From Podarcis filfolensis (lineage: Eukaryota), in the NCBI GenBank assembly GCA_964270895.1, contig OZ185442.1: a stretch of DNA of 64,000 bases; one strand, 5' to 3'. The position numbers are program-made. Of this stretch, positions 12,345 through 46,100 are shown piece by piece (position 1 is the stretch's first letter; each line of letters starts with the position of its first letter).

Positions 12345-15300
12345 CACTGTCAGGGGGGGCACGCAGTGTTTTACACACACACACTTGCACGCACTCGCAC
12401 CCCCTTTTCCTTTTCTGCAAAAGCCTTAAAACGATGCACACTGTCCGGCTGTAGTGTCCAAACCTCACACCTCCTTGCAGCACGGACAAACACACACGCA
12501 CTTGCCCGTGCACACACCCATGCACGCACGTGTGTAAGTGCAGAAAGCGGAGCAGTGTGTGTCGAAGGGGGGGGAGAGAGAGAGTAGAGAGAGAGATTTC
12601 CACTCCCCCCCCCACCCTGGGTTGATTGTCATCCTCGGTCGATCGTCACCTGTCCAGCGTGTGTGTGTATGTGTTCCCCCCCCCCCACTTCGCCCGCCCG
12701 CCACCCCTTTCTCTCCACTCACCCACCCACCCTTTTATATATATATTTATATTTTTTTCCCTCCGTGGGGTTATGCGGAGTGTCACTCACAGGTCCCCGA
12801 CATGTTCATCCCACTGCCGGTCCCTTTGGTCTTCCAAAGATCCGCCGGCCCGGAGAACGGATGGCGCCTCAAGTCGCCGCTCGCCCTGCGCTCTGCAAAC
12901 GGTAAGAAGAAGGGGGTGTAGGGGGCGGAAAGAGAAAGAAAGCAGCCGGCAAGTCAGCAAGGAACATAATGGGGAAAAGGAAGGGAAAGGGGGAAAGAAA
13001 AAGACGAGAGAGAGAGAGAATGAGAGAGATGCCACCAACTCTTGCAGGCGAGGAGAGAGAGAGAGAGAGAAAGAGGGGGAAAGGAGGGGAGAAAAAGGGG
13101 AAAGAGGGAGAGGAAGAAAGCGGAGATGGGCGAGCGGGGTTTTTATTCATGCGGTATTGATCCGGAGTGTCACTGCTCCGTATCGAACCTCCGGCGCCGG
13201 CATCCTGCGGTCGATAGACGGAGGGGGTGGGGGTCGGTGGGGGTGGGTGGTAAGCAGGGAAAAGAAGCCAAAGGCAGCCGCCGAAACCAACAGCACGCAG
13301 ACGCCGGTGGAAGAAGACTGGGCAAAAAAGAGAAAAAAGAAAGGGGGAGAAAAAAGAAAGAAAAAAGAGATCCCCCCACACTTTCACTTTTGCTGGCTGG
13401 GGGGGGGCGGTGAAGCCTTTGCTCCCACCCCAATCATCAAGTTATTTTTATTATATTGCTATTATTTCCCTATGAGGTTCTTCCTCTGTTCGGTATATGG
13501 GAAACACCAAGTAAGGTTTAGGGTTAGGCAGGTGGTGGGCTGGTGGGGGAGGATTTTTCTAGCCCAGAGAGAATTAGGGGGTGGGGGTGGACAGAAAGCA
13601 CCTGTGAGATCCAGTCTGGGAAGGTGCCCCCAAATAACCCCACCTGCCTCTTCTCCAATGCCAGCCAGTTCTGTCAAATTGTTCGCAGCCTCCCATAAGT
13701 ACCCCTTTTCATCAATTGACCCCCAAGAATATCCTGTTCGAGTTTCAGGTGCAACCCCGGTAAATGGTTACTCTAGTGCAATCATGCCAAACACCCCACC
13801 AATATTTTCTGGTTTTCTGCTTCGGATCCTCCCTCCAAATCTTCCCCACATCTAGTCAAATGCTTCTAACAATAATCTCCTGTTGAAGTCTCCCCCCCCC
13901 CCCCGCCATGTCTGCTTATGCCCACCCTCCTCCACCCACCAATTCTGCAAGTTAAATTCTGGAACTGTGAATAGTTCAGATTCTCTGTCTTCCTTGGGAC
14001 GGGGTGCTGCAGATGGGAAATGAGACAGGACCGTTGCCTTGTGTTTAAGGGGAATTTATGTCCCCTCCTACACCCCACAGCATTTGGGGTCTGCTTTGTG
14101 GCTCACAGCTCCCCTCTTCCGATTTTAGACATTTCCTCTGTATTCTAGTTACTGTTTGTTGTCAGCGTAAGATATATAGTTCCTCTGCCCGCCTCCCCCC
14201 CCCCCGTGTCAAGCTATTTCATTCTGCTATCCCCCCCTCCCATTCTACACACCTCACTATTATGTCTGGGCGCATCTTAAAAATAGACTTTTGGATTGCA
14301 CCTCTCGACCATTAGACTATGGACAGTGAACTCAAAAGATAAGTGGGGATGTGTTCCTTTGAAGTGATGGGCCTTCAGAACAGGGGAGAGGGGGGTGCAT
14401 GGGGGTCTAGTAGTTAGAGAAGGGAGGGGGGGGGCTGTCTCCAGAGCTGGGGCTCCTGAGGTCTATGAAGGGCTTTTCTAGGTGACCTTGGGGGGAAATT
14501 CTCTTCTGCCTCCTAAAATTATGAGGCAGTGGATTATACGGAATGTGCTGGGTAAGAATCTGTGTAAGAACTGGGACGGCAGTGATATTTTTGGGGTGCG
14601 ATGTGGGTGCTTATTAATGAACAAATTAGCAATAACCGCTGACTGGTAGATCTCCTTCTTCCCCTTCCCCTCCCGCTCCCCACCTCATGGAAGAGAACCC
14701 AGGCGTCCTGATGACTGATTTCCCCTACTCTAAGCAACTATACTCTGGGAGAGCTTCCTTTCCTTGGTAGACCTGACAGCTGGAGATTTAGGAGTATCAG
14801 GGATAGGGAAGGGTCAGGGCATGAAGAGAAATGTGGGCATTGGTGCATCAGTGGGTAAGGAGAGAAGCAACCCCTGTGAAAGGGTAAAGGCAAGAACGGG
14901 GCGACCCAAAGGGAGGGGGGAACGACAGGAGGCAGTTTTATAATCTGTTCCTGACACGTTCTATGGCTGGCGGGTGGGTGGGTGGTGGGGGTTCAGAGAA
15001 GTGGCTTTGCAGAGCTGGCCCTGCATGCACACCCCTCCCCCCCTGCTCTGCTGCAGCCAGCGCGGTGTGGAAATTGTATTGGTGTCAAGCCCAGTCCGTG
15101 CTAATGAACCCGGAGATCTGGGAAGCGAAGCTTGTTCAGAGGCAGAAATCGATTTTCCAGCCTGTAGTAACTGCCCCCACCTCCACCCTCTCATGCTCCT
15201 TCCTTCCCTCTCTTTCTTTCTCTCTCTCTCTCTCTGGTCAGAGAAGTCAGTGTGTTTGGTGTGTGTCCATCCTTCCATCCTTGGCGCTTTCCACATCTAG

Positions 15301-43100: not shown

Positions 43101-46100
43101 CACACCACATCTCTGTTGGGTGTCCAGGAGCCCTGAGTATGGCAAGCACAAAGGGGAGGGCAGCACCTGTGGGCGACAAGGGTAATTGGCAGGTAACACA
43201 CATGCCCACGCACATGTGTTTGTTGTGTGCCAGTCCTTGCAGTGTTCTTGGCTCCCACCCCCCAACATACCGCTATGGCTTCTTCCTCCCAGCTGCTTCC
43301 TGCCGCATTCACTGTTCTTGCTTCTGAAGCACCAGGGGACTCCCCCGGCTCTGCCCCAAGCTCAGAGGCCCTTCCTTGTCCCGCCATCCGCTCTTCCCCT
43401 CTCTGGAAGAGGTACCGGCTGTCAGCGGCAGGCAGGGCTCTCCAATGCTCTCTCTCCTGCACCAGAAGCATCGTTGCCATGGTGAACTCAGGGCTGTGGG
43501 CGGCAGGTAAGTGCCAGAGGATATACTGGTGCCAAACTGAGTGCATGGGCCACAAACAATGCTGCCCCTGTCACACCCCACTTTCAGCACTTTTTGAAAA
43601 CTATTGTCTATCGCCAGTCCTGTCTTCTCTGCAGCTCAGTGCAAAGGTGAAGGGAGAGGATAGGGTTTGGGGAAAGAGACTCCAGTAGGCCTGAGGTCAG
43701 GGCTGGAGCATGGAGTTGGGGATAAGCAGCAAAAGCACACTGGGACTTACGGATGAAAGGTATTTGAAACAGAGGGGAGCATTCTAGCTTTTCTCTAGTG
43801 GGGCTCCTGTGCCCAAGAGCTCCCTGCCAGGCAGAAAGCCAGCTGGAATGTTTTTGTCCCTGCATAGAGATGTGGGCTTGGGGGTGGGATGGGGGGAAGC
43901 GCCACACCTAATTTCTGCTGTTAAAGTCACAGGAGCCCTGCTGGGAAAAAGGTGGCAACCTGACTAAGAGCACAGGCCAAGATTTCCAACTTTGTAAGCA
44001 ACCACAGTAGCTGTGCCTTCAGCAACAACTCTATGTACAGCCATTAGCAAGTGATGCTTATCTCCTTGCTGTGAAAAGTTTCACTTGCTGATTTCTGCAG
44101 AGCGAGGTACTGTTAAAAGCACAGGCTCTGGTCACTATGCAAACCGAGCTGGCTGCGAGGGTAGTCCCAAACTTATTTCTATCCTCCAGCGTACTGATGA
44201 AGAACCTGTGGCCGTTGCTGGGCCACAGTTCCCTTTAACCCTGGCCATTGAACGAGCTGGCTGGGGCTGGCAAGAGCTTGAGTCCAACGACATCTCTAGA
44301 GTTACTGCTTCCCCATCATTGCTGCATAACTTTAGATTGAAGCAAACAAACCAGTTTACTCTCCCTGTTCCCCTCAGGCTTCCAAATTCCTGCAAGGCTT
44401 CCTGAAATCCAAGGAGACAGCAGGCTGTCCCATGCAAAAGAAGACACTGTCCCTGTATCTGTCATAGCTGCTTGCACAGTACTATTTTTGCAGGAACGAA
44501 AACAGATTCCCTTTCCTGCAAAATGACTAAAATGGCTCAGAGCTCTGCCTTCCATTGTATCTGGCTACCCTAGCTGTTTCCATCCCAGTGTTTTCCTGCA
44601 GAGGGTGCTGTAGAGAGCCAAGGCAGGAGAATGAGGACCGGCTGCTAGGGGTAGGAGGAGCGCTGCCCGGAGGCTGGTTTCTGGGCTTCTGTTTTTAGCT
44701 GGGGTTTCAGTAAATTGGAGTCTGTTTTTAAAACATCTAAAAATGTGAAAGGGAAGCAGAAGTGAAAGCCAGCAAAGGGTGGCCGGCAGTTTGGAGGACT
44801 GCGGTGGAGGAGGGGAGAGGCTGGAGAAGCATCATCTCTCAGGTCCAGCTGTAGCTGCCGGGTTCCCTTGAGAGAGAACTTGTGCAAATTTAAGAGCCAC
44901 AGTGAGGAGGAAACTCCTGAAATTATTTCATGAGTGACGTGACAATTGGTAAAATTGCCACTTAAAAAAAATAGGCCCTGCTCCTGTATCTCTATGGCAG
45001 TAATTCGAGATTCAGACATTCAGCTGGTGAGGCTTTTCCGGATGTGGAGATAAAACTTTCCCCAACAGATTTCTGAAGAAATTCTTGTATGTCTGGCTGC
45101 TGTTAAAGGCACAGGGGCAGGACCCCTGAAAACATCTTACTTCCCTAAAGCAGCAGTCTTGGGCCATTTCAGAATCAGGACGCGCTTTTTCACACTGCTG
45201 TGCAACTTCAGACCCACTCTTCAATTTTCTGCCATTTGTACGTTTTTCTTCTTCCCTCTGTTTTTCGCCATTTCTTGGCTCTTCCATAGTGTCAACATCT
45301 TCAGATGGGATTCCATTGCATAGCGACACATTCAGGCTGCACAATTTGGAGTTCTTGCTCAGCAAACCTGCTTCCCCAAAGAAGCAGACTTTCTGTGGTA
45401 AGCAAAGTGGAAACCGTGTGATGACATCCTCTTGACAATAAGGATGACAAAATCTGCCCATTTGGGTTTCTCTGAGTTTCTCATTTTTCCAGTCTTAAAT
45501 GCAATTCTCCACATTTCCACATGAGCTTGCAACTTAAAGAAGAAGAAAAAAGTTCTCACAAAAACTCACCAGCATTTTAGTGTGAATTTTGCCTAATATA
45601 TACACACACATGTCTGTTTGTATGCAATTTTGCCTAACTCAACTGAATTTTGAAGAATGGCTGTGTTTTGGTTTGTGTATTGTTTTGGAAAGTACATAAA
45701 GTATGTAAATTCAACTTTAAATAAGAACTGAATAGGATCCCACCCCCTCGCCCAATCCGTCTTTGAATCAGTGTCTCCTGCAAACAAATCAGAATGAATT
45801 CTCAATAAAAAGCCAGCATAGTCTAACCTCCTTGCAAATAGATCAAGATGATTGCTCAAGAAATAGATTGTTTGGAAGCAACATCTCTCTGCCTCTCTCC
45901 CCTTATCTTCTTCTCCAATTGTCTGTTTCTCTGTGTGTTTCTCTTCCTTTTTAAAAAAGACAGTAAGCAAAAGAGTTTTGGTGCCTGTGGTCTGACCAAC
46001 TTTAGGTGAGGGTGCAGTAACTCACTTAGAATCATAGAGTTGGAAGAGACCACAAGGGCCATCGAGTCCAACCCCCTGCCAAGCAGGAAACACCATCAGA

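What the first reader, a model, noticed from the sequence alone, without database searches (positions are those of the whole stretch)
12802..43506. Two coding first exons 30.6 kb apart swap the Oct-2 N-terminus
Seen: exon 1a (33 codons + G, donor GTAAGA) and exon 1b (9 codons + G, Kozak gccATGG, donor GTAAGT) both end in phase 1 and read into exon 2 as ...N-E-V-R-M or ...A-E-V-R-M. Known: the mammalian B-cell isoform starts MVHSSMGAP, and I recall a distinct 'exon 1X' in mouse neural Pou2f2 transcripts. Inference: the dual-promoter architecture (long neural intron, short lymphoid intron) predates the reptile/mammal split. The hydrophobic FIPLPVPLVF and WRLKSP segments of 1a may be an uncharacterised functional motif (degron, interaction site or SP phosphosite). 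Exon 1b has lost the mammalian second Met (M>L) and carries G>W.
Basis: partly seen in the sequence, partly recalled or inferred. Interest (0 to 1): 0.65.

Follow-up and report, generated by a model that had tools for sequence, protein, structure and literature searches.

The report
Alternative first coding exons of lizard Oct-2

Summary
Observation confirmed. The window is the 5' part of POU2F2 (Oct-2) of a lacertid lizard, not human. Exon 1a (ATG 12802, 33 codons + G, donor GTAAGA) and exon 1b (ATG 43479, 9 codons + G, donor GTAAGT) both join exon 2 (55479) in phase 1.

As a pattern this is not above chance: 28 such ATG/phase-1/GTRAG candidates lie upstream of exon 2. Both peptides are, however, identical to N-termini of RefSeq POU2F2 isoforms of Podarcis and Lacerta.

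- 1a type (MF[IV]PLPVP..WRLKSP..): 117 proteins from squamates, axolotl, bichir, sturgeon, gar, bowfin and teleosts; 0 of 141 mammal-type proteins and no turtle protein seen.
- 1b type: squamates, turtles, amphibians and mammals.
- A third exon, 1c (4565-4617, 53 nt, MYYSCHFCLK + G), also joins exon 2. It has its own acceptor, so a promoter lies further upstream.
- Exon 1a also has an acceptor 9 nt before its ATG; rattlesnake models use it as an internal exon.

Mouse neural E1X (Harris 2019) encodes MAKTAAPTDGSS, so it is not 1a.

Interpretation partly supported. Both N-termini predate amniotes. Tissue use is untested, and the polarity of the 1b changes is reversed: W7 is ancestral. The feature is already annotated; only the 1a peptide's function is open.

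The parts
4565..4617 (+). Exon '1c': 53-nt cassette exon, acceptor AG at 4563-4564, ATG at 4587 (MYYSCHFCLK + G, phase 1), donor GTCAGT. In the other frame it reads ..LDWSECTTAATSA then a TGA stop at 4612-4614.
   Evidence: Sequence. 10/10 identity to the N-termini of Lacerta agilis X2, Podarcis muralis X4 and others. Turtles have MFYSCHFCLK/Q. Crotalus X2/X4 read the same exon in the other frame.
12000..13400 (.). CpG island around exon 1a; the only kilobase bin of the window that meets GC > 0.55 and CpG o/e > 0.6
   Evidence: The upstream part is rich in (CA)n, poly-G and poly-C.
12793..12901 (+). Exon 1a. CDS 12802-12901 (33 codons + G), donor GTAAGA. A candidate acceptor (cacag|G) lies 9 nt before the ATG and would give a 109-nt internal form. 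The 5' end is unknown when 1a serves as a first exon.
   Evidence: Identity to annotated proteins. Internal use is inferred from the Crotalus X2/X4 junction ..SK|VLAMFIPL. Podarcis X1/X2/X6 models extend contiguously upstream.
43479..43506 (+). Exon 1b CDS (MVNSGLWAA + G), strong Kozak context gccATGG, consensus donor CAG|GTAAGT. The 5' end is unknown. The frame stays open upstream to an in-frame ATG at 43275.
   Evidence: 9/9 identical to P. muralis X5 (P0033) and others. The region is CpG-poor.
55479..55544 (+). Exon 2 (66 nt): (E)VRMSKPLELEKARLELQEEHT. It holds the internal ATG (MSKPLE) that many annotated models start from.
   Evidence: 100% tblastn identity to P0033 residues 10-31.
56891..56925 (+). 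Exon 3 (35 nt): (D)TERNGPDTNHQ
57049..57105 (+). Exon 4 (57 nt): TQQSKPSPFSPSPTSTGTK
59843..59962 (+). Exon 5 (120 nt): IKAEDP...QLMLAGSQLAG
61100..61300 (+). Exon 5b (201 nt): LTALMPAQQQ...PIQLTAQ; an alternative exon, counterpart by position of mouse neural E5b
   Evidence: Present or absent among annotated isoforms. Mouse E5b is described in PMC6561314.
62348..62453 (+). Exon 6 (106 nt): DIQQLLQLQQLVLVPGHH...QQGQQ(G)

Best explanation
The window is the 5' half of the POU2F2 (Oct-2) gene of a lacertid lizard. Three alternative 5' coding exons each end with a single G, in phase 1. Each can be spliced to exon 2 at 55479. Each splice completes a Glu codon and leads into the shared ..VRMSKPLE.. 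body. The exons are 1c (4565-4617), 1a (12802-12901) and 1b (43479-43506).

Choice of promoter and 5' exon therefore swaps only the extreme N-terminus: MYYSCHFCLK, the 33-residue MFIPLPVPLVF..WRLKSP..RSAN, or MVNSGLWAA. A fourth outcome leaves translation to start at the Met inside exon 2. The rest of the protein is untouched.

Shown here:
- The exon anatomy.
- Identity to annotated isoforms of related lizards.
- The taxonomic spread of each N-terminus.

Inferred:
- 1b has its own CpG-poor promoter and is the orthologue of mammalian exon 1 (MVHSSMGAP).
- 1a sits in a CpG island and can start transcripts there. It can also be included as an internal exon of transcripts that begin further upstream, beyond the window, and pass through the 1c cassette.
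- 1a is the ancestral bony-vertebrate N-terminus. It is a disordered tail carrying short linear motifs: a retained Met-Phe N-terminus, a PLPVP proline-hydrophobic stretch, and an invariant WRLKSP that fits an RxxS / Ser-Pro kinase site. These most likely tune stability or partner binding rather than DNA binding.
For: Anatomy.

Identity of the gene:
- Exons 2, 5b and 6 are 100% identical to lacertid POU2F2 proteins.
- Exon 5 differs from Lacerta agilis and from Podarcis raffonei/lilfordi by one residue.

All three N-termini exist as separate annotated isoforms in one species, Podarcis muralis: X3 = 1a, X5 = 1b, X4 = 1c.

Counts over the proteins fetched:
- Sauropsid-type exon 2, 99 proteins: 24 1a, 31 1b, 17 1c, 20 starting at the exon-2 Met, 7 other.
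- Mammal-type, 141 proteins: 129 1b, 2 E1X-like, 7 exon-2 Met, 3 other, 0 1a.
- Fish, amphibians and the rest, 113 proteins: 93 1a, 6 1b, 4 E1X-like, 10 other.
- The fish set was selected with a query that contained 1a, so its proportion is biased.

Constraint on 1a:
- Lizard-to-fish/axolotl identity has a median of 0.73 in 1a against 0.50 in the next 92 residues. 1a is the more conserved in 91 of 92 proteins, which are not independent lineages.
- Invariant in 46 aligned proteins: M1 F2 P4 L5 P6 V7 P8 R13 W21 R22 L23 K24 P26 R30.
- In a scan of 1.84 billion representatives, 46 of 55 hits carry the motif. 34 of those 46 read on as 'GK', as expected from reading through a conserved G|GTAAG donor. 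No hit from another protein family carried the motif.

Promoter hint: the CpG island lies only at 1a.

Disorder: the AlphaFold2 model with 46 sequences gives pLDDT < 50 for residues 9-74, while the POU domains reach 70-82.

Precedent:
- Mouse Pou2f2 uses a distal neural exon, E1X, ~47 kb upstream of the B-cell start site. That paper also reports a frame-breaking 61-bp cassette and use of the exon-2 ATG (PMC6561314, passages read).
- POU2F1 has N-terminal isoforms from alternative promoters (search listing and abstract starts only).
Against: - No transcript data for this lizard were available. Start sites, junction use and tissue specificity are not shown.
- The related-species proteins are mostly computational RefSeq/Gnomon models, and I could not see their RNA support.
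- 1a carries a plausible acceptor and is internal in the Crotalus models, so the CpG island need not be a promoter.
- The 1b match alone is statistically weak (9 residues; tblastn E 0.46). Its frame is open to an upstream ATG at 43275, so the real N-terminus depends on an unknown start site.
- The functional reading of the 1a motifs rests on general knowledge of N-terminal processing and kinase site patterns. No test was run here.
- The structure model is poor overall (mean pLDDT 46.3, pTM 0.23), so 'disordered' is a weak statement.
Confidence: 0.85

Rival explanations
1. Exon 1a is not a first exon at all. It is an internal cassette exon of transcripts from a single distal promoter upstream of the window (E1X-like exon, then 1c, then 1a, then exon 2). 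On this reading the gene has two promoters, distal and 1b, rather than a promoter at 1a.
For: - A pyrimidine-rich stretch and cacag|G acceptor lie 9 nt before the 1a ATG.
- Crotalus tigris X2 reads MRAWRSQLAPTDGSR-GAGLDWSECTTAATSASK-VLAMFIPL.., passing through a 1c-type exon into 1a at exactly that point.
- 1c has a strong acceptor, so something must lie upstream of it.
- In mouse, the distal E1X promoter drives the neural isoforms.
Against: - The window's only CpG island sits on 1a.
- Podarcis muralis X1/X2/X6 and P. raffonei X1/X2/X5 models read contiguously at least 129 nt upstream of the ATG, across the acceptor. This implies exon sequence there.
- In this window the snake-type long frame through 1c is closed by a TGA at 4612-4614.
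- Both modes may coexist.
Confidence: 0.3
2. Lizard exon 1a is the orthologue of mouse neural exon E1X, so lizard and mouse share the same dual-promoter architecture.
For: - Similar position: tens of kb upstream of the B-cell-type first exon (30.6 kb here, ~47 kb in mouse).
- Both splice to exon 2 in frame.
- Exon 5b, the companion of E1X in mouse, is present here.
Against: - The mouse E1X-type protein (P0234, XP_006539715.1) and Mus spicilegus P0232 start MAKTAAPTDGSS|EIRMSK. This has no similarity to 1a.
- The shared APTDGS motif occurs in caecilian (MAESAAAPTDGSR..) and rattlesnake (..QLAPTDGSR) models upstream of the 1c/1a sequence.
- 0 of 141 mammal-type proteins carry 1a.
- Mouse E1X-to-E3 RT-PCR gave only 152 bp and ~220 bp products, leaving no room for a 109-nt exon.
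- No APTDGS-coding stretch was found in the window.
Confidence: 0.05
3. The 1a reading frame is not translated. It is a 5' UTR or upstream ORF that gene predictors extend into, and the real protein starts at the Met in exon 2.
For: - Many annotated models start at MSKPLE (20 of 99 sauropsid-type and 7 of 141 mammal-type proteins).
- Harris et al. describe use of the exon-2 ATG in mouse.
- The longer upstream extensions (MCPPPL.. in Podarcis, MLGAGLDW.. in Crotalus) are clearly predictor artefacts and are not conserved. ATG 12669 is out of frame in this window.
Against: - Amino-acid conservation of 1a from lizard to teleost exceeds that of the adjoining coding exons (0.73 against 0.50; 91 of 92).
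- The length is fixed at 32-36 residues and the start is always MF.
- The phase-1 donor is conserved.
- The ATG has a purine at -3.
- A non-translated leader would not keep one frame over that evolutionary depth.
Confidence: 0.07

Closest known systems
Mouse Pou2f2 spinal-cord isoforms with distal exon E1X, cassette E1b and exon E5b (Harris et al. 2019, PMC6561314)
   Same: - A distal 5' exon tens of kb upstream of the B-cell first exon, spliced in frame to exon 2.
- A short frame-breaking cassette between the distal exon and exon 2: 61 bp in mouse, 53 nt (1c) here.
- Fallback to the exon-2 ATG.
- An extra exon between exons 5 and 6: 279 bp in mouse, 201 nt here.
   Different: - The mouse distal peptide is MAKTAAPTDGSS, not the 1a peptide.
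- No 1a-type exon was reported or seen in mammals.
- Homology of lizard 1c with mouse E1b is only a guess from size and position. The E1b sequence is in a supplementary figure that I could not read.
RefSeq/Gnomon POU2F2 isoforms of Podarcis muralis, P. raffonei, Lacerta agilis, Pogona vitticeps, Crotalus tigris
   Same: N-termini identical or nearly identical to all three window exons, and the same exon 2-6 peptides.
   Different: - The window comes from another lacertid: there is one substitution in exon 5.
- The in-frame upstream ATG used by the Podarcis X1/X2/X6 models is out of frame here.
POU2F1 (Oct-1) N-terminal isoforms Oct-1A/L/X from alternative promoters
   Same: In the paralogous gene, alternative promoters and first exons swap a short N-terminal peptide ahead of a common body (abstract starts seen in the listing; the exon details are recalled, not read).
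   Different: The peptides are different. No 1a-like sequence was found outside POU2F2-type sequences in the library scan.
POU2F3 Skn-1a / Skn-1i (recalled; no call)
   Same: An alternative N-terminus in a class-2 POU factor. In Skn-1i it is reported to inhibit DNA binding. This is a possible model for what an alternative N-terminus can do.
   Different: Recalled from memory only and not tested. There is no evidence here that 1a affects DNA binding.

Membership tests
POU2F2 (Oct-2) gene | N-terminal exons match those of annotated POU2F2 orthologues | tested here: met
   Exons 2, 5b and 6 are 100% identical to lacertid POU2F2. Exon 5 shows 88% over a 43-residue tblastn stretch against P. muralis and is one residue from L. 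agilis. All 7 hits among 8 candidates are named POU2F2 or POU domain protein.
POU2F2 (Oct-2) gene | POU-specific domain plus POU homeodomain | not testable with these tools
   The window ends after exon 6, so the POU exons lie downstream of it. The matching database proteins carry PF00157 and PF00046.
Alternative first exons / alternative promoters | Each 5' exon has its own ATG and donor, and all join the same acceptor in the same phase | tested here: met
   1c, 1a and 1b all end in +G (phase 1) before GT. Exon 2 begins AA...
Alternative first exons / alternative promoters | Mutually exclusive use in real transcripts | tested here: inconclusive
   Separate annotated isoforms exist for each N-terminus in the same species (P. 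muralis X3, X4, X5). These are predicted models of relatives. No reads for this genome were available.
Alternative first exons / alternative promoters | An independent transcription start site for each exon | not testable with these tools
   There is a CpG island at 1a and none at 1b. 1c and 1a have acceptors. No CAGE or RACE data.
Orthology of 1b with mammalian exon 1 (MVHSSMGAP) | Same length, phase, MV start and position as the last 5' exon before exon 2, with intermediates in other tetrapods | tested here: met
   Nine codons plus a phase-1 junction in squamates, turtles (MVNP[SND]RWMP), salamander (MVHSRTWLS), caecilian (MVYSSRWPT) and in 129 of 141 mammal-type proteins. 4 of 9 residues are identical between lizard and mammal.
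Orthology of 1a with mouse E1X | Similar encoded peptide | tested here: not met
   Mouse has MAKTAAPTDGSS; the lizard has MFIPLPVPLVF...
Conserved coding exon under purifying selection (1a) | Frame, length and residues kept across distant lineages, more strongly than in neighbouring sequence | tested here: met
   dN/dS itself could not be computed because no orthologous nucleotide sequences were available.

The most novel reading that the evidence does not exclude
The 33-residue 1a peptide (MF.PLPVP..F.R......WRLKSP...R...) is the ancestral N-terminus of bony-vertebrate Oct-2. It is an uncharacterised, disordered regulatory module, for example a Met-Phe N-degron / N-acetylation switch combined with a phospho-regulated WRLKSP site. 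It was lost or silenced in mammals and perhaps in turtles, where the distal exon is spliced straight to exon 2. If so, non-mammalian neural Oct-2 carries a control element that the mouse and human literature has never seen.
Probability: 0.3. Interest if true: 0.5.

Novelty: already known. Interest (0 to 1): 0.28.

Why it matters
As a genome feature it is ordinary. Alternative 5' exons of a class-2 POU gene are documented experimentally in mouse, and the peptides found here are already annotated in close relatives.

Two points have some value:
- The 5' architecture of POU2F2 is more layered than 'neural versus lymphoid'. It comprises a distal exon outside the window, a 53-nt cassette, 1a, 1b and the exon-2 Met. 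The mammalian and squamate/fish versions differ.
- 1a is a sharply conserved peptide, more conserved than the neighbouring activation-domain exons. Two full-text searches for its sequence and for fish isoforms found no paper on it. It is a defined target for anyone studying Oct-2 in fish, amphibian or reptile neurons or B cells.

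Tried and rejected
- the 33-residue query was below the tool's 40-residue minimum. I re-sent it as a 40-residue window reference that includes 7 in-frame upstream codons.
- Chance test of the bare pattern: 28 look-alike candidates, so the pattern alone is no evidence.
- Octamer motif ATGCAAAT as a hint of autoregulation: 5 sites against 4.15 expected; nothing.
- Search for an E1X-like (APTDGS) coding stretch on either strand of the window: none, apart from one spurious APTD at 5841.
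- Literature: 'Pou2f2 + alternative promoter + first exon' gave one irrelevant review. 'Oct-2 + N-terminal + inhibitory domain + neuronal' gave one irrelevant paper. The peptide strings gave 0 papers. 'pou2f2a + isoform' found 8 papers (7 listed), none with the terms in title or abstract; only the listing was seen.
- Library scan for 1a-like peptides in other families: the 9 of 55 hits without the motif are partial matches to residues 9-28 in long unrelated proteins, or show no aligned stretch. I treated them as low-complexity noise.
- Structure: the full-length model is poor and gives no folded or docked state for 1a. I did not run fold searches on it.
- I considered a complex prediction of 1a against the POU domains. 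I did not run it because I make no binding claim.
- The joined (spliced) exon translation of the window was never sent to any search. The exons were searched singly or through named database proteins.

Full report
**What is in the sequence**

The window has no N and 64,000 unmasked bases.

- **Exon 1a.** At 12802 an ATG opens 33 codons (MFIPLPVPLVFQRSAGPENGWRLKSPLALRSAN). A single G follows at 12901, then the donor GTAAGA.
- **Exon 1b.** At 43479 an ATG in gttgccATGG opens 9 codons (MVNSGLWAA). A G follows at 43506, then the consensus donor CAG|GTAAGT.
- **Exon 2.** At 55479, after a long pyrimidine tract and AG, exon 2 begins AAGTAAGAATG. Either upstream G completes GAA (Glu), and the frame runs E-V-R-M-S-K-P-L-E.

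Exon 2 ends at 55544, one base earlier than I first assumed.

**Is it more than chance?**

As a pattern, no. On the + strand upstream of exon 2 there are 28 ATG-initiated open frames of at least 9 codons that end in phase 1 at GTRAG. Fourteen of them have at least 33 codons. The case rests on homology.

**Which gene and whose genome**

Downstream exons in the window encode DTERNGPDTNHQ, TQQSKPSPFSPSPTSTGTK, IKAEDP..QLMLAGSQLAG, LTALMPAQQQ..PIQLTAQ and DIQQLLQLQQLVLVPGHH...

- Exons 2, 5b and 6 are 100% identical to POU2F2 proteins of Podarcis and Lacerta.
- Exon 5 differs by one residue from Lacerta agilis and from Podarcis raffonei/lilfordi, and matches none of the fetched proteins exactly.

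The window is therefore the 5' half of POU2F2 (Oct-2) of a lacertid lizard. It is not human. The POU-domain exons lie beyond the window.

**How the searches were run**

The spliced model was searched exon by exon. I never joined the window's exons for a search. Wider comparisons used named database proteins.

- The 33-residue 1a peptide was below the tool's minimum length. I sent a 40-residue window reference that includes 7 in-frame upstream codons. All 7 hits among 8 candidates were POU2F2: three squamates (Podarcis muralis at 100% over the 33 residues) and four teleost proteins at 73-77%.
- A second search used Podarcis muralis isoform X3, residues 1-125. It gave 663 hits among 2,686 candidates, of which the best 120 are listed.
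- A third search used a turtle protein, residues 10-170. It gave 1,335 hits among 8,000 scored candidates, best 120 listed.
- Three cluster look-ups added further isoforms.

I read the N-termini of all of these proteins, apart from one human reference entry and three unnamed short cluster members.

**The N-terminus types**

- **1a type** (MF[IV]PLPVP[LF]VFQR..WRLKSPLALRS..). Found in Podarcis (three species), Lacerta, Pogona, Paroedura, Anolis, Salvator, Crotalus and Vipera. Also in axolotl, bichir, sturgeon, gar, bowfin, eel and many teleosts.
- **1b type.**
  - Identical MVNSGLWAA in Podarcis muralis X5, Zootoca, Pogona, Lacerta, Varanus and Tiliqua.
  - Close variants in Rhineura, Anolis, geckos and snakes.
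  - MVNP[SND]RWMP in turtles.
  - MVHSRTWLS in a newt and MVYSSRWPT in a caecilian.
  - MVHSSMGAP in mammals.
MYYSCHFCLK occurs in Lacerta, Podarcis (three species), Hemicordylus, Heteronotia, Paroedura and Pogona. Crotalus has MYYSCYFCLK. The turtles Caretta and Pelodiscus have MFYSCHFCLK/Q.

| Exon-2 type | Proteins | 1a | 1b | 1c | E1X-like | Exon-2 Met | Other |
|---|---|---|---|---|---|---|---|
| Sauropsid | 99 | 24 | 31 | 17 | 0 | 20 | 7 |
| Mammal | 141 | 0 | 129 | 0 | 2 | 7 | 3 |
| Fish, amphibian and rest | 113 | 93 | 6 | 0 | 4 | 3 | 7 |

The fish set was gathered with a query that contains 1a, so its proportion is biased. No turtle protein that I saw has 1a. No bird or crocodilian POU2F2 appeared among the listed hits.

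**The third exon in the window**

The 1c peptide maps to 4587-4616. The exon runs 4565-4617 (53 nt). It follows ctctgttctctccttag, and its donor is GTCAGT. It ends in +G like the other two. Because it has a strong acceptor it is a cassette, not a first exon, so a further 5' exon must lie upstream.

Rattlesnake models show what that upstream exon looks like. Crotalus X2 reads MRAWRSQLAPTDGSR-GAGLDWSECTTAATSASK-VLAMFIPL... There the same 53-nt exon is read in another frame and spliced into 1a at a point 9 nt before its ATG.

The window has the matching acceptor, cacag|GTCCCCGACATG, at 12791-12792. This would give a 109-nt internal form of 1a. In this lizard the snake-type frame through 1c is closed by a TGA at 4612-4614, which a synonymous Leu codon difference in the MYYSC frame would explain. 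Only the MYYSC start or a downstream ATG can therefore be used.

I found no APTDGS-coding stretch in the window. The distal exon is upstream of the window or has diverged.

**Relation to the mouse**

Harris et al. 2019 (PMC6561314; I read the passages found for E1X, exon 1, E5b and B lymphocytes) report the following for embryonic mouse spinal cord:

- It uses an exon E1X located ~47 kb upstream of the B-cell start site.
- E1X is not amplified from B cells, and its ATG lies at its 3' end.
- An optional 61-bp exon, E1b, breaks the frame and forces use of the exon-2 ATG.
- There is an extra 279-bp exon, E5b.

However, the mouse E1X-type protein (XP_006539715.1, P0234) and the Mus spicilegus protein start MAKTAAPTDGSS|EIRMSK. 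That is unrelated to 1a. It does resemble the caecilian MAESAAAPTDGSR.. and the rattlesnake ..QLAPTDGSR.

So E1X most likely corresponds to the exon upstream of 1c and 1a, not to 1a. The mouse RT-PCR products from E1X to E3 (152 and ~220 bp) leave no room for a 109-nt 1a-like exon. Lizard 1c may be the counterpart of mouse E1b: 53 against 61 nt, the same position, and frame-breaking when included between in-frame exons. The E1b sequence is in a supplementary figure that I could not open, so this stays a guess.

Exon 5b of the window (61100-61300, 201 nt) is the positional counterpart of E5b.

**Constraint on 1a**

- Among 116 1a-bearing proteins that could be parsed, the peptide is 32-36 residues long and always starts MF.
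- Identity between the lizard and the 92 fish/axolotl proteins has a median of 0.73 in 1a. In the next 92 residues it is 0.50. 1a is the more conserved in 91 of 92. These proteins are related to one another, so the count is not a probability.
- In a 46-sequence alignment, M1 F2 P4 L5 P6 V7 P8 R13 W21 R22 L23 K24 P26 R30 are invariant.
- A scan of 1.84 billion cluster representatives with the window's own 33 residues gave 55 hits at E <= 0.001. Of these, 46 carry the motif. Most are short open-frame fragments from unnamed sources.
- Of those 46, 34 continue 'GK' right after the peptide. That is what reading through a G|GTAAG donor gives, so the phase-1 donor is conserved too.
- No other protein family carries the motif.

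dN/dS could not be computed because no orthologous DNA was available.

**Start sites**

The only kilobase bin of the window that meets CpG-island criteria is 12001-13000. At finer scale the island runs from about 12000 to 13400 and covers 1a. The 1b region is CpG-poor.

Podarcis X1/X2/X6 models read 43-44 codons contiguously upstream of the 1a ATG (MCPPPL..), across the acceptor. This argues for exon sequence there and hence for a start site in the island. That extension itself is not conserved. It runs through (TG)n, poly-C and (TA)n tracts, and in this window the corresponding ATG (12669) is out of frame, with no other in-frame ATG back to the stop before 12538. The conserved start is MFIPL.

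For 1b the frame is open upstream to an ATG at 43275 (77 codons). One UniProt model of P. muralis uses it, but only the last nine codons are conserved.

Kozak contexts, read:

| ATG | Context | Strength |
|---|---|---|
| 1b | gccATGG | strong |
| 1a | gacATGt | adequate (purine at -3) |
| 1c | tgaATGt | weak |
| exon 2 | agaATGt | adequate |

**How it most likely works**

Promoter and 5'-exon choice swaps a short N-terminal peptide on an otherwise identical Oct-2. The anatomy and the existence of the isoforms in relatives are shown. Separate promoters, and their neural or lymphoid use in the lizard, are inferred by analogy with mouse.

The 1a peptide is predicted to be disordered. In the AlphaFold2 model residues 9-74 have pLDDT < 50. 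The whole model is poor (mean 46.3), and only the POU domains reach 70-82.

I therefore read 1a as a carrier of short linear motifs. From general knowledge, not tested here:

- A Met-Phe start keeps its Met. It is a substrate for NatC-type acetylation or Met-hydrophobic N-degron recognition. An MV start (1b) loses its Met.
- R-L-K-S-P fits both RxxS and Ser-Pro kinase site patterns.

Control of stability or partner binding is my preferred guess, at about even odds given that 1a is translated. An auto-inhibitory role like the one recalled for the Skn-1i N-terminus of POU2F3 is a further possibility, without evidence here.

**Polarity of the 1b changes**

Amphibians, turtles and squamates all have W at position 7 and none has Met at position 6. 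M6 and G7 are therefore mammalian novelties.

**What stayed unchecked**

- No vertebrate genome or read collection was available.
- Absence of 1a from mammals, turtles, birds and crocodilians rests on annotated proteins only. Isoforms can hide inside 90% clusters.
- The related-species proteins are largely computational models.
- The supplements of Harris et al. were closed.
- For the Oct-1 papers I saw only the search listing and abstract starts.

**Verdict**

They are already annotated in close relatives, and the phenomenon is documented in mouse.

The interpretation needs four corrections:
1. There are three 5' coding exons, not two.
2. 1a is not E1X.
3. 1a may be an internal exon as well as a first exon.
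4. The polarity of the 1b changes is reversed.

The one open and mildly interesting point is the function and mammalian fate of the deeply conserved 1a peptide. No paper in the searched library mentions it.

Noticed in passing
window 4565-4617: A third phase-1 coding 5' exon (53 nt, MYYSCHFCLK + G) lies 8.2 kb upstream of exon 1a, outside the finding's coordinates. It is read in two different frames in different annotated models: MYYSC.. in lizards and turtles, ..LDWSECTTAATSASK in rattlesnake. The second frame is closed by a TGA in this window.
   Followed up: yes
window 61100-61300: An alternative 201-nt exon (LTALMPAQQQ..PIQLTAQ) sits between exons 5 and 6. By position it is the counterpart of the mouse neural-specific exon E5b. 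It is present in some annotated isoforms and absent from others.
   Followed up: partly
window 38600-38900: A small CpG-rich element (GC up to 0.68, CpG o/e about 1) lies in the 1a-1b intron and contains several TAAT/ATTA-type motifs. It could be an enhancer or an unannotated start site.
   Followed up: no
window 46350-46417 (+): A marginal Rfam tRNA match (30.4 bits against a gathering score of 29, E 0.024). ARAGORN finds no tRNA there. It is probably a tRNA-derived repeat or a pseudogene.
   Followed up: partly
window 12660-12760: (TG)n, poly-C and (TA)n tracts lie just upstream of exon 1a. Their lengths decide whether ATG 12669 is in frame with 1a. It is in frame in the Podarcis muralis and P. 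raffonei RefSeq models (MCPPPL.. extension) and out of frame here. The 43-codon extension is therefore likely an annotation artefact.
   Followed up: yes
window 43275-43478: The 1b reading frame stays open for 68 codons upstream to an in-frame ATG (MASSSQLLPAAF..). One UniProt model of P. muralis uses it. Mammals have an unrelated 13-codon extension (MTQLFPQPCGAGS) in many models.
   Followed up: partly
library hits P0359-P0412: Many short 'proteins' in the 1.84-billion library are open frames that start at the 1a ATG of fish POU2F2 and read through the splice donor into the intron (..RSNSGK..). They are gene-prediction fragments, not real proteins.
   Followed up: partly
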